Source: a virus
Taxonomy: Duplodnaviria > Heunggongvirae > Uroviricota > Caudoviricetes
Virus record (IMG/VR): IMGVR_UViG_3300028992_000036
Strand: one strand, 5' to 3'
Length of the DNA stretch: 64,000 bases
Part shown: piece by piece, positions 3,566 to 32,989 of the stretch
Layout of the letters: every line of letters begins with the position of its first letter
Numbering within the stretch: the stretch's first letter is position 1
Notes under the pieces: model-generated
Database searches by the model: none
What the model was told of the DNA's origin: nothing
Seen by the model: only the letters and a program-made list of their open reading frames with translations
Program-made: the position numbers and the translations under genes

Positions 3566-3644
3566 GCTCTCTCCCTGTTGTTGTCGGTCGCTCTCATTAC
3601 TGGCCAAAAAACCTTTCGACCAAAAGTAAATAATGCGACTGGCG

Positions 3645-4478: not shown

Positions 4479-4912
4479 TACTCACCGCCTTGTGCTTTCA
4501 GGATGCCGTCAATCATTTCGACAATTCCTTTCGCTTTGACACCAACCTGATTACCAATAACTCGTAGACCGGCAATACCTTCGTTGTCTGCAATTGACTC
4601 CAGCTCTTCTCGTGTGAAAGTCTGGATCTGTTTGGCCGGTTCATCTGGTGTCCCACGTTTCATTGGCACAATGTCAGGCGCTGCTGGCTCGGTAATCAGG
4701 TCTGCTGTCAATTCACCACGATCACTGTATGCGGCAGACGGAGAAACATTTTTGCCCTCTACTGTTGACGCTCGCATTGAAGCACAAATCCTCTGCTGAT
4801 CGATAAAAGGCAACTCCGCTACGGATACCCCGTTCTCGAACTGAACGCCACACAGCATTCCCGAATAACCGGAAAATTGCGGTTCTAATAAAACAATTTT
4901 TGCTGGTTTCAT
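4478..4912 (-). CDS. head-associated protein, hypothetical
   Basis: 144-aa ORF; GGAGAG RBS 10 nt upstream of ATG 4912. Confidence 0.45.
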   Translation of the reverse strand: MKPAKIVLLEPQFSGYSGMLCGVQFENGVSVAELPFIDQQRICASMRASTVEGKNVSPSAAYSDRGELTADLITEPAAPDIVPMKRGTPDEPAKQIQTFTREELESIADNEGIAGLRVIGNQVGVKAKGIVEMIDGILKAQGGE

Positions 4913-4956
4913 AACGCTTTCTCTCCACTTGGGCGGCGAAAGCCGCCCAATATCGG

Positions 4957-5877
4957 TTATTCCTGTGCGGCAGTAACTTCTACAGTTGCTGTCGCTTTGT
5001 GGCTACCATCTTGGGTAGTAACCTCGATTGTGGCAGTACCAGCCGCAACACCAGTTACAACACCGGTTTCGCTGTCAACCGTTGCAAACTCGGTATTTTT
5101 GGATTCCCAAGTAACGGTTTTATTTGTGGCTCCTGCCGGCTCGACATTTGCTGTCAGCTGAACAGTTTTGTTTGCCTCAACGGTTGTGCTATTTGGGTCG
5201 ATTTCGACGCCGGTAACAGCCACAACAGGCGCAGTTACTTCCACCGTTGCAGTTGCCTTTTTGCTGCCATCTTGGGAAACGATCTCAATCGTCGCAGTGC
5301 CAACTTCTACACCAGTAACGTTCCCGCTCTGGTCTACCGTTGCCTTATCTTCATTTTTGGAAGACCAGGTAACAGCCTTATTCGTCGCATTTGACGGCTG
5401 AACATTCGCTTTCAGACTGACTGATTTCCCTTTCTCAACAGACGTTGATTCTGGCGTTACCGTTACGGATTGAACGGCTACCGGATTTACGGTGACTTCC
5501 ACTGAAGCGGAAAGCTGGGTTTCCTGATCAGTTGCAGTAATTTTTACTTTGCCTGGTGCTACGCCAGTTACTAATCCAGTGCCGTTAACGGTTGCAATTT
5601 GGTCATTGGCTGACTTCCAGGTGAATGAACTGGCACTCTTACCCATACTAATACCTGCACTAAGTTGAACAGTTTTCCCAACCAAAACTGACGGTGAAGC
5701 CGGGGTTATGTTTACGGATTGGGAGAGGGGAACCGCCTGCAAACAAGCAGATAGCTGACTTTGTTGCCGCTCGGTTAAAGGTTCATCGGAGATAGAATTG
5801 GTAAATCCGGCACGGCACATATGCCCCGTAAAATCCGAAAATGCCTCTTCCGTAATCTTCATCTTTTGTTCTGGCAT
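4957..5877 (-). CDS. head decoration protein with three tandem Ig-like (Big_2-type) domains
   Basis: Three repeats of ...ATV(D/N)..G.VTGV..G.A.I... ; immediately downstream of major capsid gene; AGGAG RBS. Confidence 0.55.
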   Translation of the reverse strand: MPEQKMKITEEAFSDFTGHMCRAGFTNSISDEPLTERQQSQLSACLQAVPLSQSVNITPASPSVLVGKTVQLSAGISMGKSASSFTWKSANDQIATVNGTGLVTGVAPGKVKITATDQETQLSASVEVTVNPVAVQSVTVTPESTSVEKGKSVSLKANVQPSNATNKAVTWSSKNEDKATVDQSGNVTGVEVGTATIEIVSQDGSKKATATVEVTAPVVAVTGVEIDPNSTTVEANKTVQLTANVEPAGATNKTVTWESKNTEFATVDSETGVVTGVAAGTATIEVTTQDGSHKATATVEVTAAQE

Positions 5878-5889
5878 TTCTCGCTCCTA

Positions 5890-5917
5890 CAAAAAGGGTG
5901 GGCGTATAGCCCACCCT
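5890..5917 (-). terminator. intrinsic terminator/attenuator between capsid and decoration genes
   Basis: GGGTGGGC-gtata-GCCCACCC hairpin followed by a T-run on the minus strand. Confidence 0.5.
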
Positions 5918-5950
5918 TTAACATAGATAACTACTTATCTACTACACTGA

Positions 5951-6826
5951 TTAAATTTTTACATTGGTCAGTGCAGCGATAGCCTTATCGTGCTTATTCG
6001 CCAGAGAGCAGTACCACTTCACACGGGTACGTACTGCGTCTTTGTTCTGTACAGTACCAATGTTTTCAACAACGATACCTGCGTTATCGCCGCCATACAG
6101 ACCAGTAACGCCGTTCTCTTCTGACAGATGCAAGCAGTAGATGCTTGCTTTGCCAGAATCAGTCGGGATGAAGTCGTTGATGATGAACGGAACGCCGTTA
6201 TGACACAGCATCGGACGACCGAAGTTCTCCATCATGATTTCAGACGGACCTACGTTTACTGTACGCAGCAGCGCACGGTAAGCACGAAGGTGCTCTGAAC
6301 GCATCATGATGCAGTCAGCACCAAGATCTTTCACCGCATCGACCAGTTCGTCGAACATAGAGAAAGTCATAGATGCACCGGCGATATCGATCTTCTGATC
6401 TGCGTGCATCAGGCGTGGAATGCCGTCAAACGCTTTGTTGTTGGTGCTGGAGTCACCCAAAATCAGATTGCGACGGAACGCACGAGCCAGACCTTTAACT
6501 TTCTGACGAACCTGAATAGCCAACTGGTTATTGGTGTCGGCCATAGTGGTTGCCAGGAATTTATCAACGTCTACGTCACCAGCCAGAATACGCAGTTTCG
6601 CAACGCATTCTTCGAAGGTTGCTGCACCTTCCGGGATGGTGTCGTTAACGTCGATGAAGGTAGCCTCACTCAGCGTTTTTTCACGGTTGTACAGATATGC
6701 CTTTGAAGTAATTTTCATAAAAGGCAGGATGGCAAACAGGTCATCGCGATCGATGATGGTTTCAATCACGCCCTGTTCAAGTTCGTTGTTAGACAGCTTT
6801 TCAGCTTCTTCACGCAGTAATGGCAT
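5951..6826 (-). CDS. major capsid protein
   Basis: 291 aa, placed scaffold -> capsid -> decoration; followed by an attenuator; AAGGG RBS. Confidence 0.6.
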   Translation of the reverse strand: MPLLREEAEKLSNNELEQGVIETIIDRDDLFAILPFMKITSKAYLYNREKTLSEATFIDVNDTIPEGAATFEECVAKLRILAGDVDVDKFLATTMADTNNQLAIQVRQKVKGLARAFRRNLILGDSSTNNKAFDGIPRLMHADQKIDIAGASMTFSMFDELVDAVKDLGADCIMMRSEHLRAYRALLRTVNVGPSEIMMENFGRPMLCHNGVPFIINDFIPTDSGKASIYCLHLSEENGVTGLYGGDNAGIVVENIGTVQNKDAVRTRVKWYCSLANKHDKAIAALTNVKI

Positions 6827-6851
6827 CTATCAATTCCCTTTGATTTAGATG

Positions 6852-7739
6852 TTACTTAAGTCCAATTTTCCCCAGACCGGAGGCCAACTTATCCATAGTC
6901 GACTTGTTCTTCGGTTGGGATATTGTGTAGGTCGATTTGGAATGTGAGCCTACACCCTGCTTGGCTTCGCTACGCATCAATGCGTCAGCTTCCGGATCTG
7001 CCCGCACAATGCGTTCAATCGCGGATTCAAACGGCAACGGCTTACCTTCACCGTCAACCAGAACAGCTCGTTCTTTATGACCTGCCGGTTTGTCATAACC
7101 CACTACGCTACCGTCTTCACCCACTTCAAAATGAGAACCGTAGATCACGCGGGCTTTTGCCGGAGTCATCAGAACTTTGTCACGTAGGAAGAGAGAGTTA
7201 CTGAAGGAAGCGCCCACGGTCATCTCGACTAATTGAGATTTCAGTGATGCGTTTTCACTTTCCAGTGCTGCATAACGTTCGTCACGCTGTGCCAGCTCTG
7301 CCTGGTGTGCTTCGATCATCTGTTTTTTAACAGCATCGAACTCACCACGACGCTCCAGTTCAGCTTGCTCCGCCTCACGACGTGCGTTTTCTGCGGCCTG
7401 TTCAGCTTCTAAAAGCTGGCGAGCACGCGCCGGGTCGATTTCACCGTACTGAGCAAGCTGATCGGCCAATGTGCGCTCTTTCTCTTTGCGCTTCATGTTC
7501 TCTTTCAGCAGTTCAGCACCAGCTTTCTTGATTTTGCGAAGTTCGGCCAGTAACTCTTCATGAGTCATGCCAGCGTATTCGTCATCACCCTTCGGCTGCT
7601 CTTTTTGTTCACCCTGCTTGTCAGGATCTTGTGTACTCTGCTCATTATCAGCAGCTACACCGCCAGCGCCCCCACGCTCATGCGCTTCAGCAACATCCAT
7701 CAGACCACGACGGGCCAAAAGCATTTGCCACAGTTTCAT
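6852..7739 (-). CDS. scaffolding protein (charged coiled-coil)
   Basis: Highly charged E/K/A/Q-rich helical sequence between portal and capsid; same AAAGGGAATT RBS context as the capsid gene. Confidence 0.55.
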   Translation of the reverse strand: MKLWQMLLARRGLMDVAEAHERGGAGGVAADNEQSTQDPDKQGEQKEQPKGDDEYAGMTHEELLAELRKIKKAGAELLKENMKRKEKERTLADQLAQYGEIDPARARQLLEAEQAAENARREAEQAELERRGEFDAVKKQMIEAHQAELAQRDERYAALESENASLKSQLVEMTVGASFSNSLFLRDKVLMTPAKARVIYGSHFEVGEDGSVVGYDKPAGHKERAVLVDGEGKPLPFESAIERIVRADPEADALMRSEAKQGVGSHSKSTYTISQPKNKSTMDKLASGLGKIGLK

Positions 7740-7760
7740 AAAAATTCCCTTTGTTACTTA

Positions 7761-9335
7761 TCACTCGTTCTCTTGAGTAGATGAGTCCCCATTCCCTCGG
7801 GGTTGATCTTGCCCGCTTTCTTGGGCTGCACCACGATCATAAGTAAGTACTGACTTATTTTCAAGGGTATTTAGATCATTTTTTGGCGGAAAATTCAAGA
7901 GATCTTTATCAAATTCCTTTTTCATCGCCTCAGTAATGTTCGGGAAAATCTTCTCAATAAGCATTTCCATCTGGTGACGACGTACAGAGTCCGGTGCCTG
8001 AAGTAATGACAGTTTCTCGGCAACAGAAAATTCATCTGTAAGGCCACGAATATCGAAACTTTCTGGATACGCAATTAAAGAGTGGTCTTCGTCCAGATCT
8101 ACCCCCATCCATTTCGCAACCAGTAGCATGATTTGGCGTTCAGCCCTTTCCAGACGCTCTGCTTTTGTGACAAGCAAGCTATTTACACGCTGGAAGTCAT
8201 ACATTTTTGCGGCACCAGATGAGTTATCAATTCCCTGTGCGTTGTCCTGCTTCGTTCGCTCACCAGCGACACCAACTGAATGGTAGATTTCGTTAATCAC
8301 CGTCTTAATCGTAGTGATGATCATCTGAGCTTGTTTCGGGTCTGGTGACAAATAAAACGGCTGGTTTCCACCTTCAGAATCGTAGGTGAAGACTCGCTTT
8401 GTGCCCATTTCAAGCACTTTAGTGTGGTTTTCATCACCAGGTAAAAGCGACTGTACCGGTATAGCCAACTGGCTAAATGTCTGATCCTGAATAATGGCAT
8501 CAAGGTTTGACAGATAGTTTGCAACCGCACGATCAAGATAAGCGATATCATCGATCAACGATGGGCTGAAATACGGTGATTCACTTTCTCCAATACAATC
8601 AACAGGAAACACAGGAACTACGCTGAGATTATGCTCACCGCTATCCTCTAAAATAACTTTTGCCTGACGGCGACCTGCTCCACCAGCGCCCTTCTTCACT
8701 TCCTCACGGAACAGATACCACTCGTTTTGTGTCCACAGACGATAACGTTGGTATTCCTGACCTGTAGAAGTAAAAGGATCTGCGTCATCACGAGCGACTT
8801 CCACAATTAACGCCCACAACATATTCCCGTCGTCGTCCCATGCCACATCCAGCATTTGCTGAGGTGAAATCCAGTAGGCGTAGGCGCGAGCATCTTTCTT
8901 TTTCTCGTCAGCTACTGACTCAACATCACCACTCATCGTGCTATCGACAACAACCCATATGCGACCGTAAATAGACGACTGCAAATCAATAGCGGCCATA
9001 AATGAGTCAATAGAGGCATTCTGGCGAGTCGCACGTTTCCAGAAATTGCGGATCTGCTCTGGTGCCTCTTCGATATTTCTATGAATGTCTTCTTTAAAGA
9101 GATATTTGTTGATGAGGTTTACCACCTCACGAGTGTGGTTGAAGCGATAAGCACGCTCAACTCGCTCCTTAAACTCCTGATCTCCCTCTTTAAAGTAACG
9201 AAAGATATTGTCTGTAAACCAACCACGCCCGCCAGCGTAAGTGCTGGCGAGGAAGTCCCAATGTTCTTTTTTCTTTTCGTATTCCGGGTGGCGTCGCGCC
9301 ACCAGATCCTTAATTTGTTTGTCGTTCAATTCCAT
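7761..9335 (-). CDS. portal protein
   Basis: 524 aa, immediately downstream of terminase large subunit, upstream of scaffold. Confidence 0.6.
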   Translation of the reverse strand: MELNDKQIKDLVARRHPEYEKKKEHWDFLASTYAGGRGWFTDNIFRYFKEGDQEFKERVERAYRFNHTREVVNLINKYLFKEDIHRNIEEAPEQIRNFWKRATRQNASIDSFMAAIDLQSSIYGRIWVVVDSTMSGDVESVADEKKKDARAYAYWISPQQMLDVAWDDDGNMLWALIVEVARDDADPFTSTGQEYQRYRLWTQNEWYLFREEVKKGAGGAGRRQAKVILEDSGEHNLSVVPVFPVDCIGESESPYFSPSLIDDIAYLDRAVANYLSNLDAIIQDQTFSQLAIPVQSLLPGDENHTKVLEMGTKRVFTYDSEGGNQPFYLSPDPKQAQMIITTIKTVINEIYHSVGVAGERTKQDNAQGIDNSSGAAKMYDFQRVNSLLVTKAERLERAERQIMLLVAKWMGVDLDEDHSLIAYPESFDIRGLTDEFSVAEKLSLLQAPDSVRRHQMEMLIEKIFPNITEAMKKEFDKDLLNFPPKNDLNTLENKSVLTYDRGAAQESGQDQPRGNGDSSTQENE

Positions 9336-9361
9336 TTGAATAACCTTAGATAATTACCTAC

Positions 9362-10618
9362 CTATCGAGAACCACCAAGAATAACACGGTTTTTGACTGG
9401 ATACCTACGATGTACTGGATAGCCCAATGCGTCTGCACTATGCTCAATGCCACCTGTCTTATCCATATCTCGTGTTCCAGGCTTGTAGATGACTTTTTCC
9501 AGTGAATCAATCAAATGCTTGCACTTCGGATCGATATACAACCGGATATCTCCAGATGCGGTCATCAGCATTCGGTTAACAGCATTAACACGATCCGCAA
9601 TTGGCGGGTGCTTTTTCGAATAATCGACACGTAAGAATCCCTTCTCTTTGAATATGTCGACGTCAGACTCCCCGCGAGCATGTTGGCGATAAGCACCTGC
9701 CGGATCTGGAAATACCGTTATCTGTGATTTCCAGCGCCAGAAGCGTCTCTCAAGCTCATCACAAACCTCTGCCGTGTTAGAGGAAAAGAGCACCAATTCA
9801 TCAATTGCCCATAGCTCACCATTTGGCTGAGGTTGCAAAATTACTGAAGACATCGGGTCAATGTTGAAGTCCTGCCCTACCCATATAGGCAACCGAGGGT
9901 TGAACTGAAGCGGTTTTACATGCACGTTACGATCGAACGGGTAGTAAACGCGCCCGGACATGTTCTCAAAGCTCGCCAGGTACTCCTGAGCGAACGATTT
10001 CGGGTCCATATCGTTCTTAGCAGCTTCAATTTCCGCCGTAGGCACAAACGGAGAATCGGCAGTTACAAACTGCCAGCTCTTCCACTGTCCCTTTCTTTGC
10101 AGCTCTACGTTCTGGCCTATAGTCCACAGTTTGTGAAATTCCGAGAAACCTTTTGGCGTACCAATGATAAGTGCACCGCCGCGTGTCGATGAAAGAGTAG
10201 GTCGTAACACCTTGTACCAGGTGTCAGCCTTCATATCCTGAAATTCATCAAGCACTACAAAATGCAACGCTACGCCGCGCAGAGTGTCAGGCTTATCAGC
10301 ACCTTTGAGGGCGATCTCCGAACCGTTCTTCAACACGATTGTCATCGTGGTGTCGTTCTTTTTCCTAACCCACTTACGAGGCAGAACTTCCTGTAGATCG
10401 TCCCACAAAATCTGGCGAGCCATCTGGTAAGTAGGAGCGACATACCAGACCCTTTGCTTTTTTTCCTTTGCCGCCGCACGAATAATAGTGGAGATCGACA
10501 ACCGGGATTTTCCCCAGCGTCGACCAGCACAAACAACTTTAAATCGATGCGGAGACTGGAAGACTTTCATCTGTCCAGAATGCAGTTGCACAAGACTGAG
10601 CGAGGACGGGATTGCCAT
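9362..10618 (-). CDS. terminase large subunit
   Basis: Walker A VVCAGRRWGKS, Walker B HFVVLDEF, C-terminal nuclease-type region; start overlaps small-subunit stop (TAATG). Confidence 0.8.
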   Translation of the reverse strand: MAIPSSLSLVQLHSGQMKVFQSPHRFKVVCAGRRWGKSRLSISTIIRAAAKEKKQRVWYVAPTYQMARQILWDDLQEVLPRKWVRKKNDTTMTIVLKNGSEIALKGADKPDTLRGVALHFVVLDEFQDMKADTWYKVLRPTLSSTRGGALIIGTPKGFSEFHKLWTIGQNVELQRKGQWKSWQFVTADSPFVPTAEIEAAKNDMDPKSFAQEYLASFENMSGRVYYPFDRNVHVKPLQFNPRLPIWVGQDFNIDPMSSVILQPQPNGELWAIDELVLFSSNTAEVCDELERRFWRWKSQITVFPDPAGAYRQHARGESDVDIFKEKGFLRVDYSKKHPPIADRVNAVNRMLMTASGDIRLYIDPKCKHLIDSLEKVIYKPGTRDMDKTGGIEHSADALGYPVHRRYPVKNRVILGGSR

Positions 10619-11250
10619 TATTCGTCCTCCCCTTCACTTCCATCATCTGTCGCATCAAATTCGCTTAGAGCTTCTTCTTCCAACGTCTCAAGCAATTCGT
10701 CATCGATGATTTCAGGCTCGTCGTCTTCCTGACGTAATTTCGCCACCTGGGAAGGCGTAAGCTCACCAAATACCAGATTCGGAATTTCTTCCTCGTCATT
10801 TTCCGCATGATCCATGCCCAATGCTTTGGACGAAACTTCAAAGCATTTTGCAAGGGTATTACTGGCTCTCTGTAAGCTCTTGAGAGAATCCTCAATCGCC
10901 CCTAAAGGCTTACCCTCACGTTTGGCCGTAGTGACTTCGACCATCACCATCTGCCCCAACGCATACGCCCAGCCGTCATAACGTGTACGACGTTCTTCTA
11001 TCTTTTCCGCACGGGCTTTAGCGCGAAGCTCTGCGTCAGATTTAAGAGACTCACGAACCATCTTCCCAACAGAGTCCGCGCCTTTCTCTAATCCTCGCTT
11101 TTTGAAATGTCTGGAGAGTGTTTCACGACGAATGCCGTACTCTTCCTCCAGCTTTGAGAGTGTATATTCGCCTGACGTCCATTTGGCTTCAGCTTCGGCC
11201 CACTCCGCTGGTGTCAGGCGAGTTTTTACCTCGTCTTTTTCGACCGTCAT
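10618..11250 (-). CDS. terminase small subunit, putative
   Basis: 210 aa, N-terminal HTH-like region, acidic C-terminus, directly upstream of and coupled to the large subunit. Confidence 0.5.
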   Translation of the reverse strand: MTVEKDEVKTRLTPAEWAEAEAKWTSGEYTLSKLEEEYGIRRETLSRHFKKRGLEKGADSVGKMVRESLKSDAELRAKARAEKIEERRTRYDGWAYALGQMVMVEVTTAKREGKPLGAIEDSLKSLQRASNTLAKCFEVSSKALGMDHAENDEEEIPNLVFGELTPSQVAKLRQEDDEPEIIDDELLETLEEEALSEFDATDDGSEGEDE

Positions 11251-23075: not shown

Positions 23076-24136
23076 AAGGCTGACCGTAGGGGTGTTACGG
23101 GGGATAAAATCAGGAGTTGAATAAATACGAAAAAGGAGGCGACACCCCTCCTTCCCTCCCCACTTATACATACCTGGCTTCTTCGCTATACATGTTGTGT
23201 TTTATCTGTCTCAACCTCTCTATAGGCGTTAATGCTCACTCCTTCCAGAATGTTCTATACGGCAACTATTTCTGTTGGTGAATTGGGTGTGTTGTTCTCT
23301 CTGTCGGTGTATGTGGTTTCGTTCGTTTTGCGGTGGTTCTTCTATGGGGTGTTCTCGTCGTTTTGGTGATTGTTCTTCTCCGTGTATGGAGTAATGGCAG
23401 GTGGGCGATTCCTTTCGTTGTTGTGTTTGAGTTGTTTGTCTGGAGTGTGTGAAAGGCTTTTGCAGTTATTCGTGTATTGGGTAATGGCATTTCCCGTGAT
23501 TGTTGTGTTTCGTGTCTTTTGGGATTGAGAGAAACCTTGCGGTTACAGGCTTCGTTGGGGTTTCAGTGATTCTGGTGTTCTTCGCTGTTTGGGGAATGGC
23601 GTGTCGTGGGTATCGCGCGTATGAATGTTTTCGGATTGCCTGTGAAAGTTAGGTTGGTTGTCCGGTAGCCTGGGGAGAAGAGGTGGGTCTTTTCGGTAGC
23701 CTGCCATAAAGAGGTTGGTTGTTTTTGGAAATGGCATTTGTGTTATTTAGTTGTTTTGTTATGCCTGAAAATAAGTTGTTTATATGGTTGTGTAACGCAA
23801 CGGGAGCGATTTTGAGCGTGTGTTTTTGTTGGTAGTATGTTGGGTCGTCTGTGGTGAAAATTGGACGCTGTGGCGCTGTCTGCTGCGTAGAGTTACGGGT
23901 ATAAGCAGTGATGTGTGAAAACGTCAATTTTTTAGACCAAATCGGGTGAAAGCGTTGATGTTTCGTTGATCTGTTATTCAGTTGTTTTCTTGATTGTATA
24001 AACAACTATAACTTATTGATATTTAAGGATGTGATTGCGGGTATGGAAGAAGAGTAGTGGCGATCAACGGATTCTTATAGAAAAGAATCAAATTGTGACC
24101 GCCATTATCAACTGATTGATTTGTTTACTTGTGTAG

Positions 24137-24535: not shown

Positions 24536-24735
24536 TTATCCCTCACAATTTCCAATTTTCCAGACCATCGTCTATTTCAGCGTCAGGGTGGAATTGTACC
24601 GCATCAAATCCTACATCGAGCACCTTTCGAATGTTCTTGATGGTTAGACTGGCCCCCTGAATCTCCAGACAACCAGTATCACTTAAATAAGTGATAGTCT
24701 TAATACTAGTTTTTAGACTAGTCATTGGAGAACAG

Positions 24736-25101
24736 ATGATTGATGTCTTAGGGCCGGAGAAACGCAGACGGCGTACCACACAGGAAAAGATCGCAATTGT
24801 TCAGCAGAGCTTTGAACCGGGGATGACGGTCTCCCTCGTTGCCCGGCAACATGGTGTAGCAGCCAGCCAGTTATTTCTCTGGCGTAAGCAATACCAGGAA
24901 GGAAGTCTTACTGCTGTCGCCGCCGGAGAACAGGTTGTTCCTGCCTCTGAACTTGCTGCCGCCATGAAGCAGATTAAAGAACTCCAGCGCCTGCTCGGCA
25001 AGAAAACGATGGAAAATGAACTCCTCAAAGAAGCCGTTGAATATGGACGGGCAAAAAAGTGGATAGCGCACGCGCCCTTATTGCCCGGGGATGGGGAGTA
25101 A
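24736..25101 (+). CDS. insC: IS2 transposase OrfA (InsC)
   Basis: [32 protein letters not shown]... recognised as IS2 InsC. Confidence 0.85.
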
Positions 25102-25964
25102 GCTTAGTCAGCCGTTGTCTCCGGGTGTCGCGTGCGCAGTTGCACGTCATTCTCAGACGAACCGATGACTGGATGGATGGCCGCCGCAGTCGTCACACTG
25201 ATGATACGGATGTGCTTCTCCGTATACACCATGTTATCGGAGAGCTGCCCACGTATGGTTATCGTCGGGTATGGGCGCTGCTTCGCAGACAGGCAGAACT
25301 TGATGGTATGCCTGCGATCAATGCCAAACGTGTTTACCGGATCATGCGCCAGAATGCGCTGTTGCTTGAGCGAAAACCTGCTGTACCGCCATCGAAACGG
25401 GCACATACAGGCAGAGTGGCCGTGAAAGAAAGCAATCAGCGATGGTGCTCTGACGGGTTCGAGTTCTGCTGTGATAACGGAGAGAGACTGCGTGTCACGT
25501 TCGCGCTGGACTGCTGTGATCGTGAGGCACTGCACTGGGCGGTGACTACCGGCGGCTTCAACAGTGAAACAGTACAGGACGTCATGCTGGGAGCGGTGGA
25601 ACGCCGCTTCGGCAACGATCTTCCGTCGTCTCCAGTGGAATGGCTGACGGATAATGGTTCATGCTACCGGGCTAATGAAACACGCCAGTTCGCCCGGATG
25701 TTGGGACTTGAACCGAAGAACACGGCGGTGCGGAGTCCGGAGAGTAACGGAATAGCAGAGAGCTTCGTGAAAACGATAAAGCGTGACTACATCAGTATCA
25801 TGCCCAAACCAGACGGGTTAACGGCAGCAAAGAACCTTACAGAGGCGTTCGAGCATTATAACGAATGGCATCCGCATAGTGCGCTGGGTTATCGCTCGCC
25901 ACGGGAATATCTGCGGCAGCGGGCTTGTAATGGGTTAAGTGATAACAGATGTCTGGAAATATAG
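25059..25964 (+). CDS. insD: IS2 transposase OrfB (InsD), DDE catalytic domain
   Basis: GTG start; [23 protein letters not shown]... recognised as IS2 InsD; overlaps insC in the -1 frame. Confidence 0.85.
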
Positions 25965-26165
25965 GGGCAAATCCAATGGTTTGCTATGTGACACCGTAAT
26001 CACGCAGCTTTTCTTCCCTCCCCTGACTCCCCCATACTCCGTTTCTGTACCCAATTGAGTCCGAGATTGTATGGTGCTCGAAACAGATATTTGGTAGACA
26101 CTCAGAGTCATGCTGTGTAACGAGGGTAGGGCTACTAACTGTCGTCTTATACAATTTGGTGAGTT

Positions 26166-26414
26166 TCAGCATTTTACCACCCCGTTCGGAAACAACTCAT
26201 TCGCCGTAGTTGATATAACCTCCCAATTAACGCCGACATCAGCGTTATGGCATTGTCTGATTTTTTGCATCACCTGTACGCATTGTTCATCAGTGAGATC
26301 TGTCCTTACTTCAGCAATATCTTCTTTGTGCCACATAACCATGAGTAAGGGTTCGTCTTCTGGATAGTTTTTCAGTTTCTCGATGATTTCTTTTGCTGTT
26401 CCAAACATCTTCAT
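26166..26414 (-). CDS. small acidic hypothetical protein with two upstream motif-A copies
   Basis: 82 aa; GGAG RBS; motif A at 26419-26453 and 26467-26486 links it to the phage-like early genes. Confidence 0.45.
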   Translation of the reverse strand: MKMFGTAKEIIEKLKNYPEDEPLLMVMWHKEDIAEVRTDLTDEQCVQVMQKIRQCHNADVGVNWEVISTTANELFPNGVVKC

Positions 26415-26520
26415 CTCCTAAACAATTTGTTTTCTTATATGACTTATTATCTCAATCAACAAAAGGTAGAAAACAAATTGTTTTAGAGTTTGTTAAAGTC
26501 AGAAGGGGTTGTGTCTATAT

Positions 26521-26546
26521 GAAAATGCCCGGCGTGTTGCCGGGCA
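26521..26546 (-). terminator. metG intrinsic terminator
   Basis: GCCCGGC-aacac-GCCGGGC hairpin followed by ATTTT on the minus strand, ~25 nt after the metG stop. Confidence 0.5.
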
Positions 26547-26567
26547 TTGCGAAGAGAGGTTGTTTAA

Positions 26568-28601
26568 TTACTTAACCTGGTGGCCAGGTTTAGCACCAGC
26601 ATCCGGGCTTAACAGGAAGATATCTTTCCCGCCGGGGCCAGCAGCCATCACCATGCCTTCAGAGATACCGAAGCGCATTTTACGTGGTGCCAGGTTAGCC
26701 ACCATAATGGTGTGACGACCAATCAGTGCCTGTGGATCTGGATAAGCGGAACGGATGCCTGAGAAGACATTACGCTTTTCACCACCGAGATCCAGCGTCA
26801 GGCGAAGCAGTTTGTCAGAACCTTCTACAAACTCTGCGTTTTCAATCAGCGCCACGCGCAGGTCAACTTTGGCGAAGTCGTCAAAGGTGATAGTTTCCTG
26901 AATCGGGTCGTCAGCCAGTGGGCCAGTTACCGGTGCGGCTGTGGCTTTCACTTCTTCTTTGGATGCTTCCACCAGTGCTTCAACCTGCTTCATATCGATG
27001 CGGTTATACAGTGCCTTGAACGGATTCACTTTATGGCCCAGCAGCGGTTGCTGGATACCATCCCAGGTCAGTTCTGTATTCAGGAATGCTTCTGCACGTT
27101 CAGTCAGTTTCGGCAGTACCGGTTTCAGGTACGTCATCAGCACGCGGAACAGGTTAATGCCCATAGAGCAAATCGCCTGCAGATCGGCATCGCGTCCTTC
27201 CTGCTTTGCCACCACCCACGGAGCCTGTTCATCAACATAGCGGTTAGCCAGGTCAGCCAGTGCCATGATTTCACGGATAGCTTTGCCAAATTCGCGGCTT
27301 TCCCATGCTTCGCCAATCACTTCAGCGGCATCAGTAAAGGTTTTGTACAGTTGCGGGTCAGCCAGTTCGCTTGCCAGCACGCCGTCAAAACGCTTGTTGA
27401 TAAAGCCTGCATTACGGGAGGCCAGGTTAACCACTTTGTTAACGATATCGGCATTCACACGCTGAACGAAATCTTCCAGGTTGAGATCGATATCATCAAT
27501 GCGCGAAGAGAGTTTCGCAGTGTAGTAGTAACGCAGGCTGTCGGCGTCAAAATGATTCAGCCAGGTGCTGGCTTTAATAAAGGTGCCGCGAGACTTGGAC
27601 ATCTTCGCGCCGTTCACCGTCACATAGCCGTGAACAAACAGGTTGGTCGGCTTGCGGAAGTTGCTGCCTTCCAGCATGGCAGGCCAGAACAGGCTGTGGA
27701 AGTAAACGATATCTTTGCCGATGAAGTGGTACAGCTCGGCGGTGGAGTCTTTCTTCCAGTATTCGTCGAAGCTGGTAGTGTCGCCGCGTTTGTCGCACAG
27801 ATTCTTGAAGGAACCCATGTAGCCAATCGGCGCGTCCAGCCAGACGTAGAAGTATTTGCCCGGTGCGTTCGGAATTTCAAAACCGAAGTAAGGTGCGTCA
27901 CGGGAGATATCCCACTGTTGCAGGCCAGATTCAAACCACTCCTGCATTTTGTTTGCCACCTGCTCCTGCAACGCACCGCTGCGGGTCCATGCCTGCAACA
28001 TTTCGCTGAAAGAAGGCAGATCAAAGAAGAAGTGTTCGGAATCACGCATTACCGGTGTAGCGCCAGAAACCACTGATTTCGGCTCGATCAGTTCCGTCGG
28101 GCTGTATGTCGCGCCGCAGACTTCACAGTTATCGCCGTATTGATCCGGCGCTTTACATTTCGGGCATGTGCCTTTTACAAAACGGTCCGGCAGGAACATG
28201 CCTTTTTCCGGGTCGTACAGCTGAGAGATGGTGCGGTTTTTAATAAAACCGTTCTCTTTCAGGCGAGTATAGATAAGCTCGGACAACTGACGGTTCTCTT
28301 CGCTGTGCGTCGAGTGATAGTTGTCATAGCTGATGTTAAAGCCTGCGAAATCAGTCTGATGTTCCTGACTCATTTCGCCAATCATCTGTTCCGGTGTGAT
28401 ACCAAGCTGCTGTGCTTTCAGCATGATTGGCGTACCGTGGGCATCGTCGGCACAGATGAAATTAACCTCGTGGCCGCGCATTCGCTGGTAACGAACCCAG
28501 ACATCAGCCTGGATGTGCTCCAGCATATGGCCGAGGTGGATTGAGCCGTTAGCGTACGGCAGCGCGCACGTCACCAGAATTTTCTTCGCGACTTGGGTCA
28601 T
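26568..28601 (-). CDS. metG: methionyl-tRNA synthetase
   Basis: Protein from [29 protein letters not shown]... with class I HIGH motif (HLGH) and KMSKS; 677 aa; track ORF over-extended by 43 codons. Confidence 0.95.
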
Positions 28602-28758
28602 AGTAGGCATTACTTCTTTGTAGTGAAAAGGGGCTTGATAGTAACAAAATGGCCTTATGTCTGCCATGTGATAACAGCATTTCTCATAAATGATTAAATG
28701 TCGTAGCTGGAGTACACTACAAGGCGACAATTGCGCAAATTAAAATAAAGGAGACGGG

Positions 28759-29859
28759 ATGAGCGAGTCCAAATCGCCGGATGCCCTGAGAGCAATGGTA
28801 GCCGGTACGCTGGCTAATTTTCAGCACCCAACCCTGAAACACAACCTGACTACGCTTAAAGCGTTACACCATGTTGCGTTGATGGATGACACACTGCATG
28901 TCGAACTAATCATGCCTTTCGTGTGGAATAAGCCTTTTGAAGACCTGAAAGAGCAATGTAGTGGTGATCTGCTCCGTATCACTGGCGCAAAGGCTATTGA
29001 CTGGAAGCTGTCGTACAACATTGCCACGCTTAAGCGCGTCAAAAACCAACCAGGCATTAATGGCGTTAAGAACATTATCGCCGTCAGCTCAGGCAAGGGC
29101 GGCGTGGGTAAATCCTCCACGGCGGTAAACCTGGCACTGGCGTTGGCTGCTGAAGGTGCGAAAGTTGGTATTTTGGATGCCGATATCTATGGTCCATCAA
29201 TTCCAACCATGCTGGGCGCGGAAAACCAACGTCCAACCTCACCGGACGGTACTCACATGGCACCTATCATGTCTCATGGCCTGGCAACCAACTCTATTGG
29301 TTATCTGGTCACCGACGACAATGCAATGGTGTGGCGTGGACCGATGGCCAGCAAGGCGCTGATGCAGATGTTGCAGGAAACACTGTGGCCTGATCTGGAC
29401 TATCTCGTTCTCGATATGCCACCGGGCACTGGTGATATTCAATTGACGCTGGCGCAGAACATTCCTGTAACTGGTGCGGTTGTGGTAACTACGCCGCAAG
29501 ACATCGCGCTGATCGATGCGAAGAAAGGCATTGTGATGTTCGAAAAAGTCGAAGTGCCGGTACTGGGTATCGTTGAAAACATGAGTGTGCATATTTGCAG
29601 TAACTGCGGTCATCACGAGCCAATTTTTGGCACCGGTGGCGCACAGAAACTGGCCGAGAAATACAACACGCAGTTGTTAGGCCAAATGCCACTTCATATC
29701 TCTCTTCGTGAAGATCTGGATAACGGAACACCAACCGTTATTAGTCGTCCAGATAGTGAATTTACGGCTATTTATCGTGACCTCGCAGATCGCGTTGCTG
29801 CCCAAATGTATTGGCAAGGTGAAGTAATACCTGGCGAAATCGCATTCCGCGCAGTGTGA
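28759..29859 (+). CDS. apbC: Fe-S cluster carrier ATPase ApbC/Mrp
   Basis: P-loop [12 protein letters not shown], CxxC region ICSNCGHHE; divergent from metG as in E. coli; GGAG RBS. Confidence 0.9.
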
Positions 29860-29866
29860 TAAAAAG

Positions 29867-29995
29867 GTGGTGCTTTTGCCGTTACGCACCACCCCGTCAG
29901 TAGCTGAACAGGAGGGACAGCTGATAGAAACAGAAGCCACTGGAGCACCTCAAAAACACCATCATACACTAAATCAGTAAGTTGGCAGCATCACC
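29867..29995 (-). mobile_element. IS1 remnant (left terminal ~127 bp incl. IRL and first 22 codons of insA)
   Basis: Reverse complement reads GGTGATGCTGCCAACTTACTGATTTAGTGTATGATGG...; InsA N-terminus [24 protein letters not shown]; ends 8 nt after the apbC stop. Confidence 0.8.
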
Positions 29996-30104
29996 GAGCG
30001 CCAGCGGCGAACATATGAGCTTCGGAAATACTAGACATTCTTAACTCCGTTGTTTTCTAGTTGTGGTTATTTTCACAAATAAGAAAAGATAGAAAACAAT
30101 TTAT

Positions 30105-30135
30105 TTAAGGCCACAACTTATGGCCTTTATTTATT
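30105..30135. terminator. bidirectional hairpin terminator candidate
   Basis: GGCCA-caactta-TGGCC hairpin flanked by T-rich runs on both strands. Confidence 0.4.
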
Positions 30136-30157
30136 CATGCCGAAGGATTTGTAGCGT

Positions 30158-30538
30158 CTAATTGCCGGATAAAATGGGGTGAGGTGCTTGCCAGTAGGCT
30201 CCACCGTTCCATGTGAACCCCATGCGAATAAGAGTGTTTATTGCGGCTTTGGTAGACTCCGATTCGACACTGGCTTTACGAAACTCTTGAACCTCTTTCG
30301 CCAACTTGTATGTAATTGTGCAGGGGACGATTGCAGCCCAGCCTTTCTCATGACTGTTAATGACCATCTGGATGTGACCATCCAGAATAGGTTGATTAGG
30401 CATGTTATTGAAAATGTCTGCCTGTTTTTGAATGTGAAGAAAAAGCCTTGCCAGCGCCATTTGCTCACTACGAGACAAGGGATTATCAAGAGGGCTTTTT
30501 GCAAAAGCTGCTATACGCTGTGCATCAATGCCAAACAT
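30158..30538 (-). CDS. hypothetical protein
   Basis: 126 aa; start overlaps upstream stop (TGATG). Confidence 0.45.
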   Translation of the reverse strand: MFGIDAQRIAAFAKSPLDNPLSRSEQMALARLFLHIQKQADIFNNMPNQPILDGHIQMVINSHEKGWAAIVPCTITYKLAKEVQEFRKASVESESTKAAINTLIRMGFTWNGGAYWQAPHPILSGN

Positions 30539-31242
30539 CAGCGCACCTCACCATCTTTATGGCTGGAGTTAACTTCCGTCATTAAATGTCTGACGTAATC
30601 GACAAGAGAGCCGCCTGGTGGAATCTGGCATTCCTCAACTAACTGGAAGTAGATATCCGCTGCATTACGTGTATTGCTACCCGCGCATATTCTTTCTTCC
30701 CGAAGTGCATGAAGCTCGTTGATCAAACGGTCACACTCTCCGTTACGCTGATCCACAACGGCCTCAAGCTCTGCGACGCGTTCACCTGGCGTCTTACCTT
30801 CTTTGCGTTGGATGGTAACGACGAAATCGCCAATTGCAGGGACGTTGTAATCCAGCTCAAGGTAGTTTTTGGCACCGCTGCGGACGAACTCACCCGCGAA
30901 CATGGTGGCGAACATCGCAGAGGCCACTTCTCCGTTGAAAAGTGACTCCAGATCTAACGGAGTCCCGGCAGCAAGAGCCTCTTTTGCTGTATCCATTGCA
31001 TCCATGAACCGATCAAACTCACTAGCGCGCTTTTCCAGGTCTTTCCATTGCTCGCTCCAACGTTTGGCAACGAAGTCTATGAATGTTTTCGCGGATTCAT
31101 CAAAATTCCCCTCAAACTTAACGATGCCTTTATCAATAATGATCTGGCCTACCGCATCCTCTGCATAACCTTTCAATGTAAACTTGAAAGGAAAATCGGA
31201 ATGGCCTGTGACGTTAAAATGCTCTAACTGGAGGTTGCTCAT
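30538..31242 (-). CDS. hypothetical protein
   Basis: 234 aa; AAGAGA RBS. Confidence 0.45.
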   Translation of the reverse strand: MSNLQLEHFNVTGHSDFPFKFTLKGYAEDAVGQIIIDKGIVKFEGNFDESAKTFIDFVAKRWSEQWKDLEKRASEFDRFMDAMDTAKEALAAGTPLDLESLFNGEVASAMFATMFAGEFVRSGAKNYLELDYNVPAIGDFVVTIQRKEGKTPGERVAELEAVVDQRNGECDRLINELHALREERICAGSNTRNAADIYFQLVEECQIPPGGSLVDYVRHLMTEVNSSHKDGEVR

Positions 31243-31303
31243 GTGTTTTTCTCTTATCGTTTAGTAACTACATTCTTACATAAATTAAGTAAGCATTTAC
31301 CTA

Positions 31304-32989
31304 TCATTTAACGCGTTTGAAAACGTATACGCTGACTGTGATCCCTGTGTCTTCAAACTCGTTGGTAAACGACTTCCCTCTGGCATAAACGTAATTATCC
31401 ATCGTCATCCAGTCCAGTATTGGCGCAGTGCCCGGCAATACTGCTACAAGACGCCCGCCGACTTTCAGATGCCCCAGCGCAGCCAGCGTGTGCTCTCTAT
31501 GACGACCAAGCGAGTACGGCGGGTTCATAACGATTTTGTCGAACTGATAACCTGCGTTGTCCTCAGACCACTTTATGAAGTCGCAGCAAATCGTGTTCGT
31601 ATACCCTTTTCCACGCAGGATATCAGCGAAGAGAGGTGCGATTTCTATGCAGGTAACATCTTCCAGATCGGCGTCAATATAGGCCAGAAGATCCCCACGT
31701 CCGGCTTGAGGCTCCAACAGCTTCTCACCAGGCTTCAATTCAGTGGCTCTTGCAACGTACTCAGCAATCAAGCGTGGGGTAGGGTAGAACTGGTGTGATT
31801 TTGTATCCGGTATTAAACCGGTAGCCACAATCGTATTTAGCGTATGGCCGATGTCATACGGGAACTGCCAGTGCTTTTTCTCCTGCACGCCGCCAATGAA
31901 GCTCAGTGTGCGCTCAAGCTCTTCCACCTGCGACTTCTGGAGAGCTGAATCAGAGAAGTACCATACACCTTTGTCTTTGCTCAATCGCCCGTCACGAAGC
32001 GCAGTGCGAACCGGCACGGAGATCGTCTTCTGGATTAAACCGAACTGCTTTGGTGCCCGTGTTTTTGGCGCAGTTCGGCATGGCGCGGGGATTGCAGCAG
32101 GCATACTGTAAGCCAGCACCTCATTCAACTTCCAGGCCACGTCAGGATGTATTTCAAAGTGAACGTTGCCGTTCTTGAACATCTTCACGCGCATCAGATT
32201 TCCATCGACGTTCATCCAGTCACCGGTCTGGCAGTCGTTTGCCCGATACGCAGCTGATAGCACCTCAGCAGTGCGGTTGATGGTAATAAATTCTTTGTGC
32301 GCGAAGAAATGAAGCAAGACACGCAGATCGTCGATGTAGTCCTCTTTGCGATAGTTCACGCTAACGCTGTCCCGCCAGAAATCAGAAATGCAGTCAGCGA
32401 TTATCAGCCGCTCGCTGAAACCATTTGTCTTATTTGTCTTGTGCACAGGACTCAGCGCCTTAAACAAGCCATACACGCGCTCAGAGAGATATTTGTGCCT
32501 GTCATTCAGCAAATTAAGCATCGTGGGTATGACCGTTTCTGCTTTGAACTCCGGTACACCAACGAACTCTTTAACCTTCATCTGGTAGCCGGTTCTGTCA
32601 GTTTTGATGACTTCCTGTTTGCCCTCTATAAACTGCTCGCGCCACTCATCTCGACGGGAAGCTGGCATGATCAGCAAAACGTTAGTCATGTCCGTGACCT
32701 TCCTCCAGTACTCGGCCCAAATATTCTGTTTCACCCATTCCAGATCGACTTTATCCAACCAACCTCGATTTAAACGCGAGCGATCTTCATCTGGTCGATG
32801 GTTTAGTTTCAGCAGGCGATTAATCATGTTGTGGCGTTCGTCGCCATAAACGAAGTTGTGAACCTGATACATGAAGGCGATCTCTTTCTCGCACTCGGCC
32901 ACAATTTCGTGGATAACGTTCATTTCCTGACGATAATCGATAGCAGTGTTTGAGCTGGCATCGTCGATGATGGAAAGGGCTGTATTCAT
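31304..32989 (-). CDS. orphan N6-adenine DNA methyltransferase with large N-terminal domain of unknown function
   Basis: C-terminal FYPTP, motif I EPQAGRGDL, motif IV NPPY; ~400-aa N-terminal extension; motif A at 33001-33035. Confidence 0.65.
   Translation of the reverse strand: MNTALSIIDDASSNTAIDYRQEMNVIHEIVAECEKEIAFMYQVHNFVYGDERHNMINRLLKLNHRPDEDRSRLNRGWLDKVDLEWVKQNIWAEYWRKVTDMTNVLLIMPASRRDEWREQFIEGKQEVIKTDRTGYQMKVKEFVGVPEFKAETVIPTMLNLLNDRHKYLSERVYGLFKALSPVHKTNKTNGFSERLIIADCISDFWRDSVSVNYRKEDYIDDLRVLLHFFAHKEFITINRTAEVLSAAYRANDCQTGDWMNVDGNLMRVKMFKNGNVHFEIHPDVAWKLNEVLAYSMPAAIPAPCRTAPKTRAPKQFGLIQKTISVPVRTALRDGRLSKDKGVWYFSDSALQKSQVEELERTLSFIGGVQEKKHWQFPYDIGHTLNTIVATGLIPDTKSHQFYPTPRLIAEYVARATELKPGEKLLEPQAGRGDLLAYIDADLEDVTCIEIAPLFADILRGKGYTNTICCDFIKWSEDNAGYQFDKIVMNPPYSLGRHREHTLAALGHLKVGGRLVAVLPGTAPILDWMTMDNYVYARGKSFTNEFEDTGITVSVYVFKRVK

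What the first reader, a model, noticed from the sequence alone, without database searches (positions are those of the whole stretch)
26166..30010. Chromosomal metG-apbC pair embedded between phage-like modules, with an IS1 remnant at the junction
metG and divergent apbC are core housekeeping genes, yet phage-like genes with motif-A promoters lie immediately beyond the metG terminator, and a 127-bp IS1 left-end fragment sits 8 nt after the apbC stop with its intact terminus facing phage-like DNA. With IS2 at 24645-25975 and inverted IS911-like ends at 1-76 and 55777, this points to IS-mediated capture or cointegration. It could also be partly a scaffolding artefact.
Basis: partly seen in the sequence, partly recalled or inferred. 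Interest (0 to 1): 0.7.

Follow-up and report, generated by a model that had tools for sequence, protein, structure and literature searches.

The report
Phage-plasmid's long-kept metG–apbC cargo
The methionyl-tRNA synthetase gene and its neighbour apbC are not a stray piece of chromosome or an assembly error: they are an old, intact, inherited cargo module of a common E. coli phage-plasmid family, and the insertion-sequence scars beside them are later, unrelated accidents.

Summary
The window is colinear, end to end, with a closed circular 113-kb SSU5/pHCM2-like phage-plasmid (pM160133_p3), apart from one extra IS2. The same metG–apbC block sits at the same backbone site in about 215 of about 216 such plasmids among 5,426 complete E. 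coli genomes. It is also in about 200 PLSDB plasmids (E. coli, Shigella, E. albertii, E. fergusonii) and four phage genomes, including Cyrano/pLF82. So it is not a scaffolding artefact.

The IS1 stub is found in only 8 genomes. There it replaces neighbouring phage genes through a microhomology deletion. IS2 is a private insertion with a 5-bp duplication. Neither element made the capture.

Both genes are intact and under strong purifying selection (dN/dS about 0.02). apbC forms a deep lineage specific to these plasmids. It is saturated at synonymous sites against every chromosome, and no chromosomal donor was found. It is shared with a second, very divergent phage-plasmid lineage at the same left junction.

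metG stays about 94% identical to E. coli chromosomal metG and is visibly mosaic (PHI p=0.0005). This points to repeated gene conversion with host copies.

The family is known and the genes are annotated, but none of the papers searched discusses this cargo. Moderate interest.

The parts
24645..25975 (+). IS2 (1331 bp), a private secondary insertion. The 5-bp target duplication ATGGT lies at 24640-24644 and 25976-25980.
   Evidence: Sequence read. pM160133_p3 has the uninterrupted site. An IS2-family transposase is annotated under the match (H4).
26166..26414 (-). Phage-plasmid backbone gene (DUF1380 family, counterpart of SSU5_104). It is the left neighbour of the cargo block.
   Evidence: RefSeq annotation of the identical plasmid. 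75% nt match to SSU5. No Pfam or NCBIfam hit.
26417..26486 (-). Backbone promoter/operator region with two copies of the palindrome AAACAAnTTGTTT (26420-26432 and 26471-26483). This is the last stretch that is homologous to SSU5.
26487..26567 (-). 3' flank of the captured metG, with a hairpin terminator at 26525-26547 followed by a T run. It is unlike the E. coli, Citrobacter or Salmonella flank, but is shared by both phage-plasmid lineages. This is the ancestral left junction.
26568..28601 (-). metG, methionine-tRNA ligase, 677 aa. It is intact (HLGH at 22, KMSKS at 333, C-terminal tRNA-binding domain), 98.8% aa and about 94% nt identical to E. coli K-12 metG, and mosaic.
28602..28758 (.). 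Divergent intergenic promoter region. About 50 bp next to metG are conserved with chromosomes; the rest is specific to the phage-plasmids (64% identity to E. coli).
28759..29859 (+). apbC (mrp), Fe-S cluster carrier ATPase, 366 aa. It has Walker A GKGGVGKS at 112 and CxxC at 280, and belongs to a deep clade specific to these phage-plasmids.
29866..29995 (-). IS1 left-end remnant (about 128 bp). Its inner end is fused to the left arm of the apbC terminator at the microhomology GG(T/C)GGTGC. Its intact terminus is at 29995.
29996..30038 (-). First 14 codons (MSSISEAHMFAAGA) of an SSU5_099-like HD / RelA-SpoT-like gene, cut off by the IS1.
30039..30137 (-). Promoter/operator left orphaned by the truncation (palindrome at 30094-30106), plus the terminator of the next backbone gene (30107-30127).
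30158..32989 (-). Backbone genes to the right: 381-nt and 705-nt hypothetical genes, and the DUF4942 / SSU5_095-like methylase-type gene.

Best explanation
**What it is.** The window is an SSU5/pHCM2-like phage-plasmid of the Escherichia branch (the pLF82/Cyrano, pECOH89 and p09EL50 family). The metG-apbC block (26487 to about 29890 in the ancestral form) is an old cargo module of that branch. One capture took a divergently transcribed chromosomal gene pair, with both terminators, into the variable early/accessory region between two operator-controlled backbone units. The block has been inherited ever since.

**What it most likely does (inferred).** Both genes encode fully functional proteins. 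They give the lysogen extra copies of MetRS and the Fe-S carrier ApbC at plasmid copy number. apbC behaves as a moron, meaning it is expressed on its own during lysogeny.

**How the two genes evolve.** apbC has drifted with the backbone beyond the reach of homologous recombination. metG is still about 94-95% identical to host metG and keeps exchanging tracts with chromosomal metG by gene conversion, so it evolves in concert with the host gene.

**The IS elements.** The IS1 stub is a later scar in a small sub-lineage. An IS1 landed in codon 15 of the SSU5_099-like gene. A microhomology deletion then removed the inner part of IS1 and the phage genes between it and the apbC terminator. IS2 is a still later simple insertion.
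For: **Shown here**
- Full colinearity with a closed circular plasmid, and SSU5 homology on both sides of the block.
- The plasmid-type block (>=95% identity) is in 215 records of the 5,426 complete E. coli genomes (224 plasmid places in all), against 216 genomes with the matching terminase. It is therefore essentially core to the lineage.
- It is in 202 PLSDB plasmids, 203 of the 208 matching records being non-mobilizable, and in 4 phage records. SSU5 lacks it.
- All 13 copies examined are intact and keep the catalytic motifs. Equivalog scores are 1020 against a cut-off of 587, and 759 against 348.
- dN/dS is about 0.02.
- apbC has dS >= 1.3 against every chromosome and 119 fixed differences from E. 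coli. No chromosomal ApbC is above 95% aa identity.
- A second lineage, with a backbone only 75-82% identical, has the same left junction. Its ApbC shares derived residues and the 3-residue N-terminal shortening.
- metG has only 9 fixed differences from E. coli. At 150 sites the plasmid copies are polymorphic and one allele equals the chromosomal one.
- Identical tracts of 190-300 nt have chance expectations of 1e-3 to 1e-4. PHI gives p=0.0005 for metG and p=0.46 for apbC.
- The last 100 nt of metG, next to the end of homology, stay plasmid-specific in every copy.
- The IS1 junction is in 8 genomes only and sits at a microhomology.

**From the literature (PMC9928086)**
- Cyrano has about 5.5 copies per chromosome and produces virions.
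- CYRAN_99, which is apbC, is transcribed 9-fold above prophage background in lysogens.
Against: - The benefit to host or phage is inferred, not shown.
- In LF82, the plasmid metG (CYRAN_100) is transcribed only about 1.6-fold above background, so a dosage role for MetRS in lysogeny is weak.
- No Fe-S client or translation-related partner on the plasmid was identified.
- The gene-conversion inference rests on 12 closed copies and 4 chromosomal alleles. The metG copies of lineage 2 come from short-read drafts and could be partly chimeric; one search shows such a suspicious contig.
- Chromosomes of other Escherichia species (E. albertii, E. fergusonii, E. marmotae) could not be compared, so some 'plasmid-specific' metG alleles may simply come from them.
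- Dating by dS assumes that plasmid and chromosome clocks are comparable.
Confidence: 0.75

Rival explanations
1. One reading: the pair was picked up recently through IS1, IS2 or IS911 activity (a composite transposon or a cointegrate between chromosome and phage-like DNA).
For: An IS1 end abuts apbC, and IS2 lies 590 bp beyond metG. IS elements are frequent on this plasmid.
Against: - The IS1 junction is in 8 of about 215 carriers.
- The common form has no IS at either junction.
- IS2 has its own 5-bp duplication and an empty site in a 100%-identical relative.
- The block is about 10% (metG-apbC overall) to 18% (apbC) diverged from any E. coli chromosome.
- It is shared with a lineage whose backbone is only 75-82% identical.
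Confidence: 0.03
2. Scaffolding or assembly artefact: a chromosomal contig wrongly joined to phage-plasmid contigs.
For: The window contains a 37-N gap and IS ends.
Against: The arrangement is identical in hundreds of closed circular plasmids and in phage genomes. The N gap lies 26 kb away, inside an IS911 fragment. The sequence differs from the chromosomal copy by about 10%.
Confidence: 0.01
3. Neutral passenger: the block has no selected role. metG stays intact only because conversion from the functional host copy keeps repairing it, and apbC hitch-hikes.
For: Conversion of metG is supported. Plasmid metG is weakly transcribed in LF82 lysogens.
Against: - apbC receives no conversion (PHI p=0.46, 119 fixed differences). 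It is nevertheless intact, has dN/dS of 0.02-0.06 across saturated synonymous divergence, and is expressed.
- A 3.4-kb useless block in a capsid-limited genome would be expected to be lost. Yet about 215 of 216 plasmids keep it, while the genes next to it turn over freely.
Confidence: 0.12
4. Homology anchor: metG is kept because about 2 kb of near-identity to an essential host gene lets the phage-plasmid recombine with the chromosome. This could allow integration, allele shuttling between Escherichia species, or transduction of neighbouring markers.
For: Mosaic metG shows that exchange happens. The plasmid encodes its own RecA. One IMG/VR contig has a chromosomal flank, a hybrid metG and phage-plasmid genes.
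Against: No terminase match lies on any of the 5,426 chromosomes, so stable integration is rare or absent. The IMG/VR contig has the signature of a repeat-induced assembly chimera. This view does not explain apbC.
Confidence: 0.09

Closest known systems
SSU5/pHCM2-like phage-plasmids of Escherichia (pLF82 = phage Cyrano, pECOH89, p09EL50, PhiR41_1)
   Same: The whole window is colinear with such a plasmid. It has the same replication/partition, DNA-metabolism and siphovirus structural modules, and the same metG-apbC block at the same site.
   Different: This copy belongs to a small sub-lineage with the IS1 scar and the loss of the umuD-like to SSU5_099-like genes. It carries a private IS2, and its tape-measure gene is split by an IS3-family element. 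SSU5 itself has other small genes at this site.
Phage morons and auxiliary metabolic genes that recombine with host copies (for example cyanophage psbA). This comparison is recalled from general knowledge, not tested here.
   Same: A host-derived, functional, conserved gene is carried by a temperate or virulent phage. apbC is expressed independently of the lytic programme, and the phage and host copies show intragenic mosaicism.
   Different: Here the genes are an essential aminoacyl-tRNA synthetase and an Fe-S carrier on a plasmid-prophage. One of the two genes has escaped exchange, while its neighbour has not.
Plasmid-borne second aminoacyl-tRNA synthetases that confer inhibitor resistance (for example MupA/MupB IleRS)
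   Same: An extra synthetase gene on a mobile replicon.
   Different: The plasmid MetRS is 98.8% identical to the host enzyme, with 8 conservative substitutions. It matches the ordinary MetRS equivalog, not an 'exception' model. There is no sign of a resistant variant.
IS1-flanked composite transposons and IS-mediated cointegrates
   Same: An IS1 end lies next to captured chromosomal genes.
   Different: There is a single truncated IS1 end, no second copy and no target duplication around the block. IS1 is absent from more than 95% of carriers, and the junction is a microhomology deletion.

Membership tests
SSU5/pHCM2-like phage-plasmid | Circular plasmid replicon with replication initiator and partition genes | tested here: met
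   The window is colinear with closed circular pM160133_p3, which carries a RepB-family initiator and ParB-type partition genes.
SSU5/pHCM2-like phage-plasmid | Complete siphovirus structural and packaging module, and nucleotide homology to SSU5 | tested here: met
   Terminase, portal, capsid and tail genes are annotated. There is 68-88% nt homology to SSU5 on both sides of the block. The tape-measure gene is interrupted by an IS in this copy, so this particular element may be defective.
SSU5/pHCM2-like phage-plasmid | Produces virions and lysogenises as a plasmid | not testable with these tools
   Reported for the relative Cyrano/pLF82: virions by qPCR and EM, and 5.5 copies per chromosome (PMC9928086).
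Methionine-tRNA ligase (NCBIfam NF001100 equivalog) | Full-length score above the curated cut-off | tested here: met
   1019.8 bits against a cut-off of 587, covering 4-677 of 677 residues.
Methionine-tRNA ligase (NCBIfam NF001100 equivalog) | Class I signature motifs HIGH and KMSKS, and the C-terminal tRNA-binding domain | tested here: met
   HLGH at 22 and KMSKS at 333 in all 13 plasmid copies. PF01588 covers 581-674.
Methionine-tRNA ligase (NCBIfam NF001100 equivalog) | Aminoacylation activity | not testable with these tools
   Inferred from 98.8% aa identity to E. coli K-12 MetRS.
ApbC/Mrp Fe-S cluster carrier (NCBIfam NF008669 equivalog) | Full-length score above the curated cut-off | tested here: met
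   759.3 bits for the window copy and 693.6 bits for lineage 2, against a cut-off of 348.
ApbC/Mrp Fe-S cluster carrier (NCBIfam NF008669 equivalog) | Deviant Walker A GKGGVGKS and the cluster-binding CxxC motif | tested here: met
   Both are present in all plasmid copies, including lineage 2.
IS-mediated capture (composite transposon or cointegrate) | IS copies at both ends of the captured block, present in carriers generally | tested here: not met
   There is one truncated IS1 end on one side only, in 8 genomes. The ancestral junctions are IS-free.
Simple IS2 transposition | Full-length element, 5-bp target duplication, and an empty site in a close relative | tested here: met
   The element is 1331 bp, ATGGT is duplicated, and pM160133_p3 is uninterrupted.
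Prophage moron | Transcribed autonomously during lysogeny and not needed for the lytic cycle | not testable with these tools
   Literature only. CYRAN_99 (apbC) is 9-fold above prophage background in LF82, and CYRAN_100 (metG) is about 1.6-fold above (PMC9928086).

The most novel reading that the evidence does not exclude
An essential host gene (metG) has been carried by a temperate phage-plasmid lineage for a very long time and evolves in concert with its hosts' chromosomal copies through recurrent gene conversion. Its neighbour apbC crossed the divergence threshold and became an isolated, phage-plasmid-specific paralogue. The block would then be a standing recombination bridge between phage-plasmids and Escherichia chromosomes. 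It could move metG alleles between species, and sometimes anchor larger exchanges; the extra der gene in one plasmid and the different chromosomal-type genes after apbC in lineage 2 hint at this.
Probability: 0.45. Interest if true: 0.6.

Novelty: new member of a known kind. Interest (0 to 1): 0.4.

Why it matters
About 4% of complete E. coli genomes carry this phage-plasmid, and therefore a second MetRS and a second, divergent ApbC. No paper found here comments on this.

For annotation and surveillance, plasmid contigs carrying metG/apbC should not be binned as chromosome. Short-read assemblies can also form chimeras at metG.

For biology, the locus is a clean natural example of two adjacent captured genes with opposite fates: one is continually homogenised with the host copy, the other is isolated. 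It is also a tractable system, since Cyrano/LF82 and PhiR41_1 propagate in the laboratory. It can be used to ask what a phage-plasmid gains from an extra synthetase and Fe-S carrier.

Tried and rejected
1. **Donor search.**
   - A genome-contig scan with MetG found nothing closer than E. coli itself (about 90% nt over the block).
   - A 5.8-billion-protein search with ApbC found no chromosomal protein above 95% identity.
   - No donor was identified.
2. **Flanks.** The metG and apbC terminators and outer flanks match no E. coli, Escherichia sp., Citrobacter or Salmonella flank.
3. **Link to a plasmid toxin.** I considered a link between MetRS and a plasmid-borne tRNA-targeting toxin, such as the KacT-like GNAT toxin listed for Cyrano. 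No such gene is annotated on pM160133_p3, so I dropped the idea.
4. **Integrated copies.** No terminase match lies on any chromosome. The chromosomal DUF4942 match I inspected is a CRISPR spacer.
5. **IMG/VR contig.** One contig appears to join chromosome and phage-plasmid at metG. The break falls at the shared identical tract, with a 10-nt gap, so I treat it as a probable assembly chimera.
6. **Consensus scans.** The sigma-70 and terminator scan of the block gave counts no higher than shuffled sequence.
7. **Non-coding stretch.** Rfam and tandem-repeat scans of 20-34 kb found nothing.
8. **Literature.** Searches combining SSU5, phage-plasmid or pHCM2 with metG, MetRS or apbC returned nothing relevant. 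One search failed on syntax.
Full report
**1. The observation**

- metG occupies 26568-28601 on the minus strand. apbC occupies 28759-29859 on the plus strand.
- Eight bases after the apbC stop begins a reverse-complemented IS1 left end of about 128 bp. Its intact terminus ends at 29995.
- IS2 is a full 1331-bp copy at 24645-25975, flanked by a 5-bp duplication ATGGT.
- A 37-N gap lies at 56253-56289.
- The 'motif A' is a palindrome, AAACAAnTTGTTT. It is found 10 times in the window against 0.34 expected. Two copies lie in the promoter region of the gene left of metG, and one lies just right of the IS1 stub.

**2. What the window is**

A 9-kb query around the finding is 100% identical, apart from the IS2, to the closed circular 113,428-bp plasmid pM160133_p3 of E. 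coli. I fetched the whole plasmid and aligned it. The window is colinear with it from end to end:
- window 77-24645 corresponds to plasmid 61950-86518;
- window 25976-52891 corresponds to 86513-113428;
- the window then runs across the plasmid origin, 52892-56252 corresponding to 1-3360;
- window 56290-64000 corresponds to 3402-11112.

The N gap replaces 41 bp inside an IS911 fragment.

The plasmid has a RepB-type initiator and ParB partition genes. It has a large DNA-metabolism set (nrdAB, thyA, dfrA51, dnaE, primase, helicase, ligase, recA) and tRNA genes. It also has a complete siphovirus structural module, so it is an SSU5/pHCM2-like phage-plasmid. The scaffolding-artefact reading is therefore excluded.

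**3. How common the block is**

- Among 5,426 complete E. coli genomes every chromosome has metG-apbC, at about 90% identity to the window.
- In addition, 215 records, all plasmids, carry a copy at least 95% identical to the window.
- The terminase of this phage-plasmid is found in 216 genomes, never on a chromosome. Essentially every member of the lineage carries the block.
- PLSDB holds 202 plasmids with it (E. coli, Shigella sonnei, E. albertii, E. fergusonii). Of the 208 matching records, 203 are non-mobilizable.
- Four deposited phage genomes have it, including Cyrano (the pLF82 phage-plasmid) and PhiR41_1. SSU5 itself matches only 67 nt of the flank. pLF82, p09EL50 and pECOH89 all carry it.
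- None of the papers I could search mentions it.

**4. Boundaries and the IS elements**

Compared with SSU5, backbone homology stops at 26486 and resumes at exactly 29996, the base after the IS1 terminus.

On the left, the stretch 26487-26567 contains the metG terminator. It resembles no chromosomal flank examined.

On the right, the relatives examined that lack the IS1 stub all show apbC followed by its own hairpin terminator and then a umuD-like S24 peptidase gene. In Cyrano, FDAARGOS_1287 and pMTY12368, Ea22-type small genes follow. No IS is present.

The apbC/IS1/backbone junction of the window occurs in only 8 genomes. Alignment shows the join lies in the left arm of the apbC terminator, at a short microhomology with the IS1 interior, GG(T/C)GGTGC. 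Beyond the IS1 terminus lie the first 14 codons of an SSU5_099-like gene.

The simplest history has two steps. First, IS1 inserted into that gene. Second, a microhomology deletion removed the inner IS1 and the phage genes up to the apbC terminator.

IS2 is a private simple insertion, because the 100%-identical relative has the empty site. The IS911-type pieces lie in the tape-measure gene and beside a type I restriction-modification module. None of these elements made the capture.

**5. The genes are functional and constrained**

- MetG scores 1020 bits against the MetRS equivalog (cut-off 587). ApbC scores 759 bits (cut-off 348).
- All 13 plasmid copies examined are full length. They keep HLGH, KMSKS, the Walker A motif and CxxC.
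- Plasmid MetG differs from K-12 MetG at 8 of 677 residues. dN/dS against chromosomal genes is about 0.02 for both genes.

**6. Two neighbours with opposite histories**

apbC is about 82% identical in nucleotides to E. coli, Citrobacter and Salmonella alike. Its dS is at least 1.3 against every chromosome, and it has 119 fixed differences from E. coli. No chromosomal ApbC among 5.8 billion proteins exceeds 95% aa identity.

That search also turned up a second 366-residue ApbC, 81% identical, in E. coli draft assemblies.
- Its contigs are a phage-plasmid whose backbone is only 75-82% identical to the window.
- The left junction (backbone operator, then metG terminator) is the same.
- The two ApbC proteins share derived residues and a 3-residue shorter N-terminus.

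So the pair was already in place in the common ancestor of two deeply diverged lineages, and apbC has diverged along with the backbone.

metG behaves differently.
- It is about 94% identical to E. coli chromosomal metG (dS 0.28).
- The plasmid copies are as far from each other (dS up to 0.27) as from the chromosome.
- metG is more variable among lineage-1 plasmids (94.4-97.9%) than the adjacent intergenic region (mostly 99.4-100%; 95.5% in one plasmid) and mostly more than apbC.
- There are only 9 fixed differences from E. coli. At 150 sites the plasmids are polymorphic and one allele equals the invariant chromosomal allele.
- Individual plasmids carry 190-300-nt tracts identical to a chromosomal allele, where sister plasmids have 6-10 differences per 100 nt. 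Expected numbers of such runs are 1e-3 to 1e-4. Some tracts are shared by independently sequenced plasmids and by a phage genome.
- The PHI test gives p=0.0005 for metG and p=0.46 for apbC.
- The last 100 nt of metG, next to the end of homology, remain plasmid-specific in every copy. This is expected if conversion needs homology on both sides.

I conclude that plasmid metG repeatedly exchanges sequence with host metG. There are three caveats. The sample is modest. Other Escherichia species could not be included. The lineage-2 metG comes from short-read drafts, where chimeras at this repeat are plausible.

**7. Function**

What is shown is presence, integrity, constraint and near-universal retention, while the neighbouring genes turn over.

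From the literature (PMC9928086):
- Cyrano is kept at about 5.5 copies per chromosome and makes virions.
- Its apbC (annotated there as a septum-site protein, CYRAN_99) is one of 13 morons, transcribed 9-fold above prophage background in LB.
- Its metG is only about 1.6-fold above background.

My best reading is that apbC is a lysogeny-expressed auxiliary gene supplying extra Fe-S carrier capacity. metG would be a functional second MetRS whose main expression may come with the leftward phage transcription with which it is co-oriented. Both points are inference.

The plasmid MetRS is not a resistance-type variant. The neutral-passenger and homology-anchor readings remain possible at lower probability.

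**8. Comparison and verdict**

The element is a member of a known family, Escherichia SSU5-like phage-plasmids. The sequence is already public and annotated.

What is not in the literature I could search:
- the block is core to the lineage and old;
- its two genes have opposite evolutionary fates;
- the IS1 stub is a derived deletion scar.

This is a new member of a known kind (host-derived auxiliary cargo on a temperate phage), of moderate interest.

Noticed in passing
L092 6699-8171 (pZ1323HEC0016-2, NZ_CP148383.1): One lineage-1 phage-plasmid carries a third housekeeping gene, der (ribosome-biogenesis GTPase), directly after apbC. It is 91.4% nt identical to E. coli chromosomal der and is the only record at >=99% identity to itself among 5,426 genomes.
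   Followed up: partly
L094-L097 (E. coli draft assemblies, e.g. DAFUVE010000025.1): A second, deeply diverged SSU5-like lineage has metG-apbC at the same left junction. A different set of chromosomal-type genes follows: a BOF/YgiW-like gene, hok, cytochrome c peroxidase, cytochrome b562 and a restriction-modification S subunit. No closed representative is in PLSDB.
   Followed up: partly
window 32282-32314: A 33-nt stretch of the DUF4942 gene matches, at 100%, a spacer in a chromosomal CRISPR array of E. coli AST85 (H186). Some E. coli therefore carry immunity against this phage-plasmid.
   Followed up: no
window 11291, 20435, 21199, 22102, 26420, 26471, 30094, 33002, 33716, 34445: The palindrome AAACAAnTTGTTT occurs 10 times against 0.34 expected, across roughly 11-34 kb of the window. 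The three sites flanking the cargo block lie in intergenic promoter regions. It is probably the operator of a phage-plasmid regulator.
   Followed up: partly
window 29996-30106: A 14-codon stump of an SSU5_099-like HD / RelA-SpoT-like gene, with its now orphaned promoter/operator. If active, the promoter would transcribe through the IS1 stub, antisense to apbC and sense to metG.
   Followed up: partly
window 1-820: The window starts in the last 76 bp of an IS3-family element that splits the tape-measure gene, as in pM160133_p3. This copy is probably unable to make infectious virions.
   Followed up: partly
window 23170-24020: About 1 kb of non-coding, strongly G/T-skewed sequence (GC skew +0.28, AT skew -0.34). 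It is 68% conserved in SSU5 and has no Rfam match and no tandem repeat. Its function is unknown.
   Followed up: partly
L003 (CP170191.1, 'Enterobacter hormaechei B56' chromosome): Its metG-apbC is identical to E. coli K-12 (dN = dS = 0). The record is probably mislabelled or contaminated.
   Followed up: no
L130 + L135 (IMGVR_UViG_2740892421_000017): The contig reads, in order: chromosomal flank, hybrid metG, phage-plasmid apbC, 6 kb of phage-plasmid genes, a partial chromosomal metG, then chromosomal apbC. The switch falls at the tract shared by both metG copies, so it is probably an assembly chimera. A homology-anchored integration cannot be excluded.
   Followed up: partly
phage records OQ572407.1 (Pseudomonas phage Y5), CAKLQF020000011.1 and CAKLQH020000007.1 (Acinetobacter phage MD-2021a): These 'phage' records also contain metG plus mrp at about 68% nt identity. 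They could be host contamination or independent captures of the same pair. I did not examine them.
   Followed up: no
window 55.8-64 kb: A type I restriction-modification system (R, S and M subunits plus a DUF4268 gene) sits next to the truncated IS911, as further accessory cargo.
   Followed up: no
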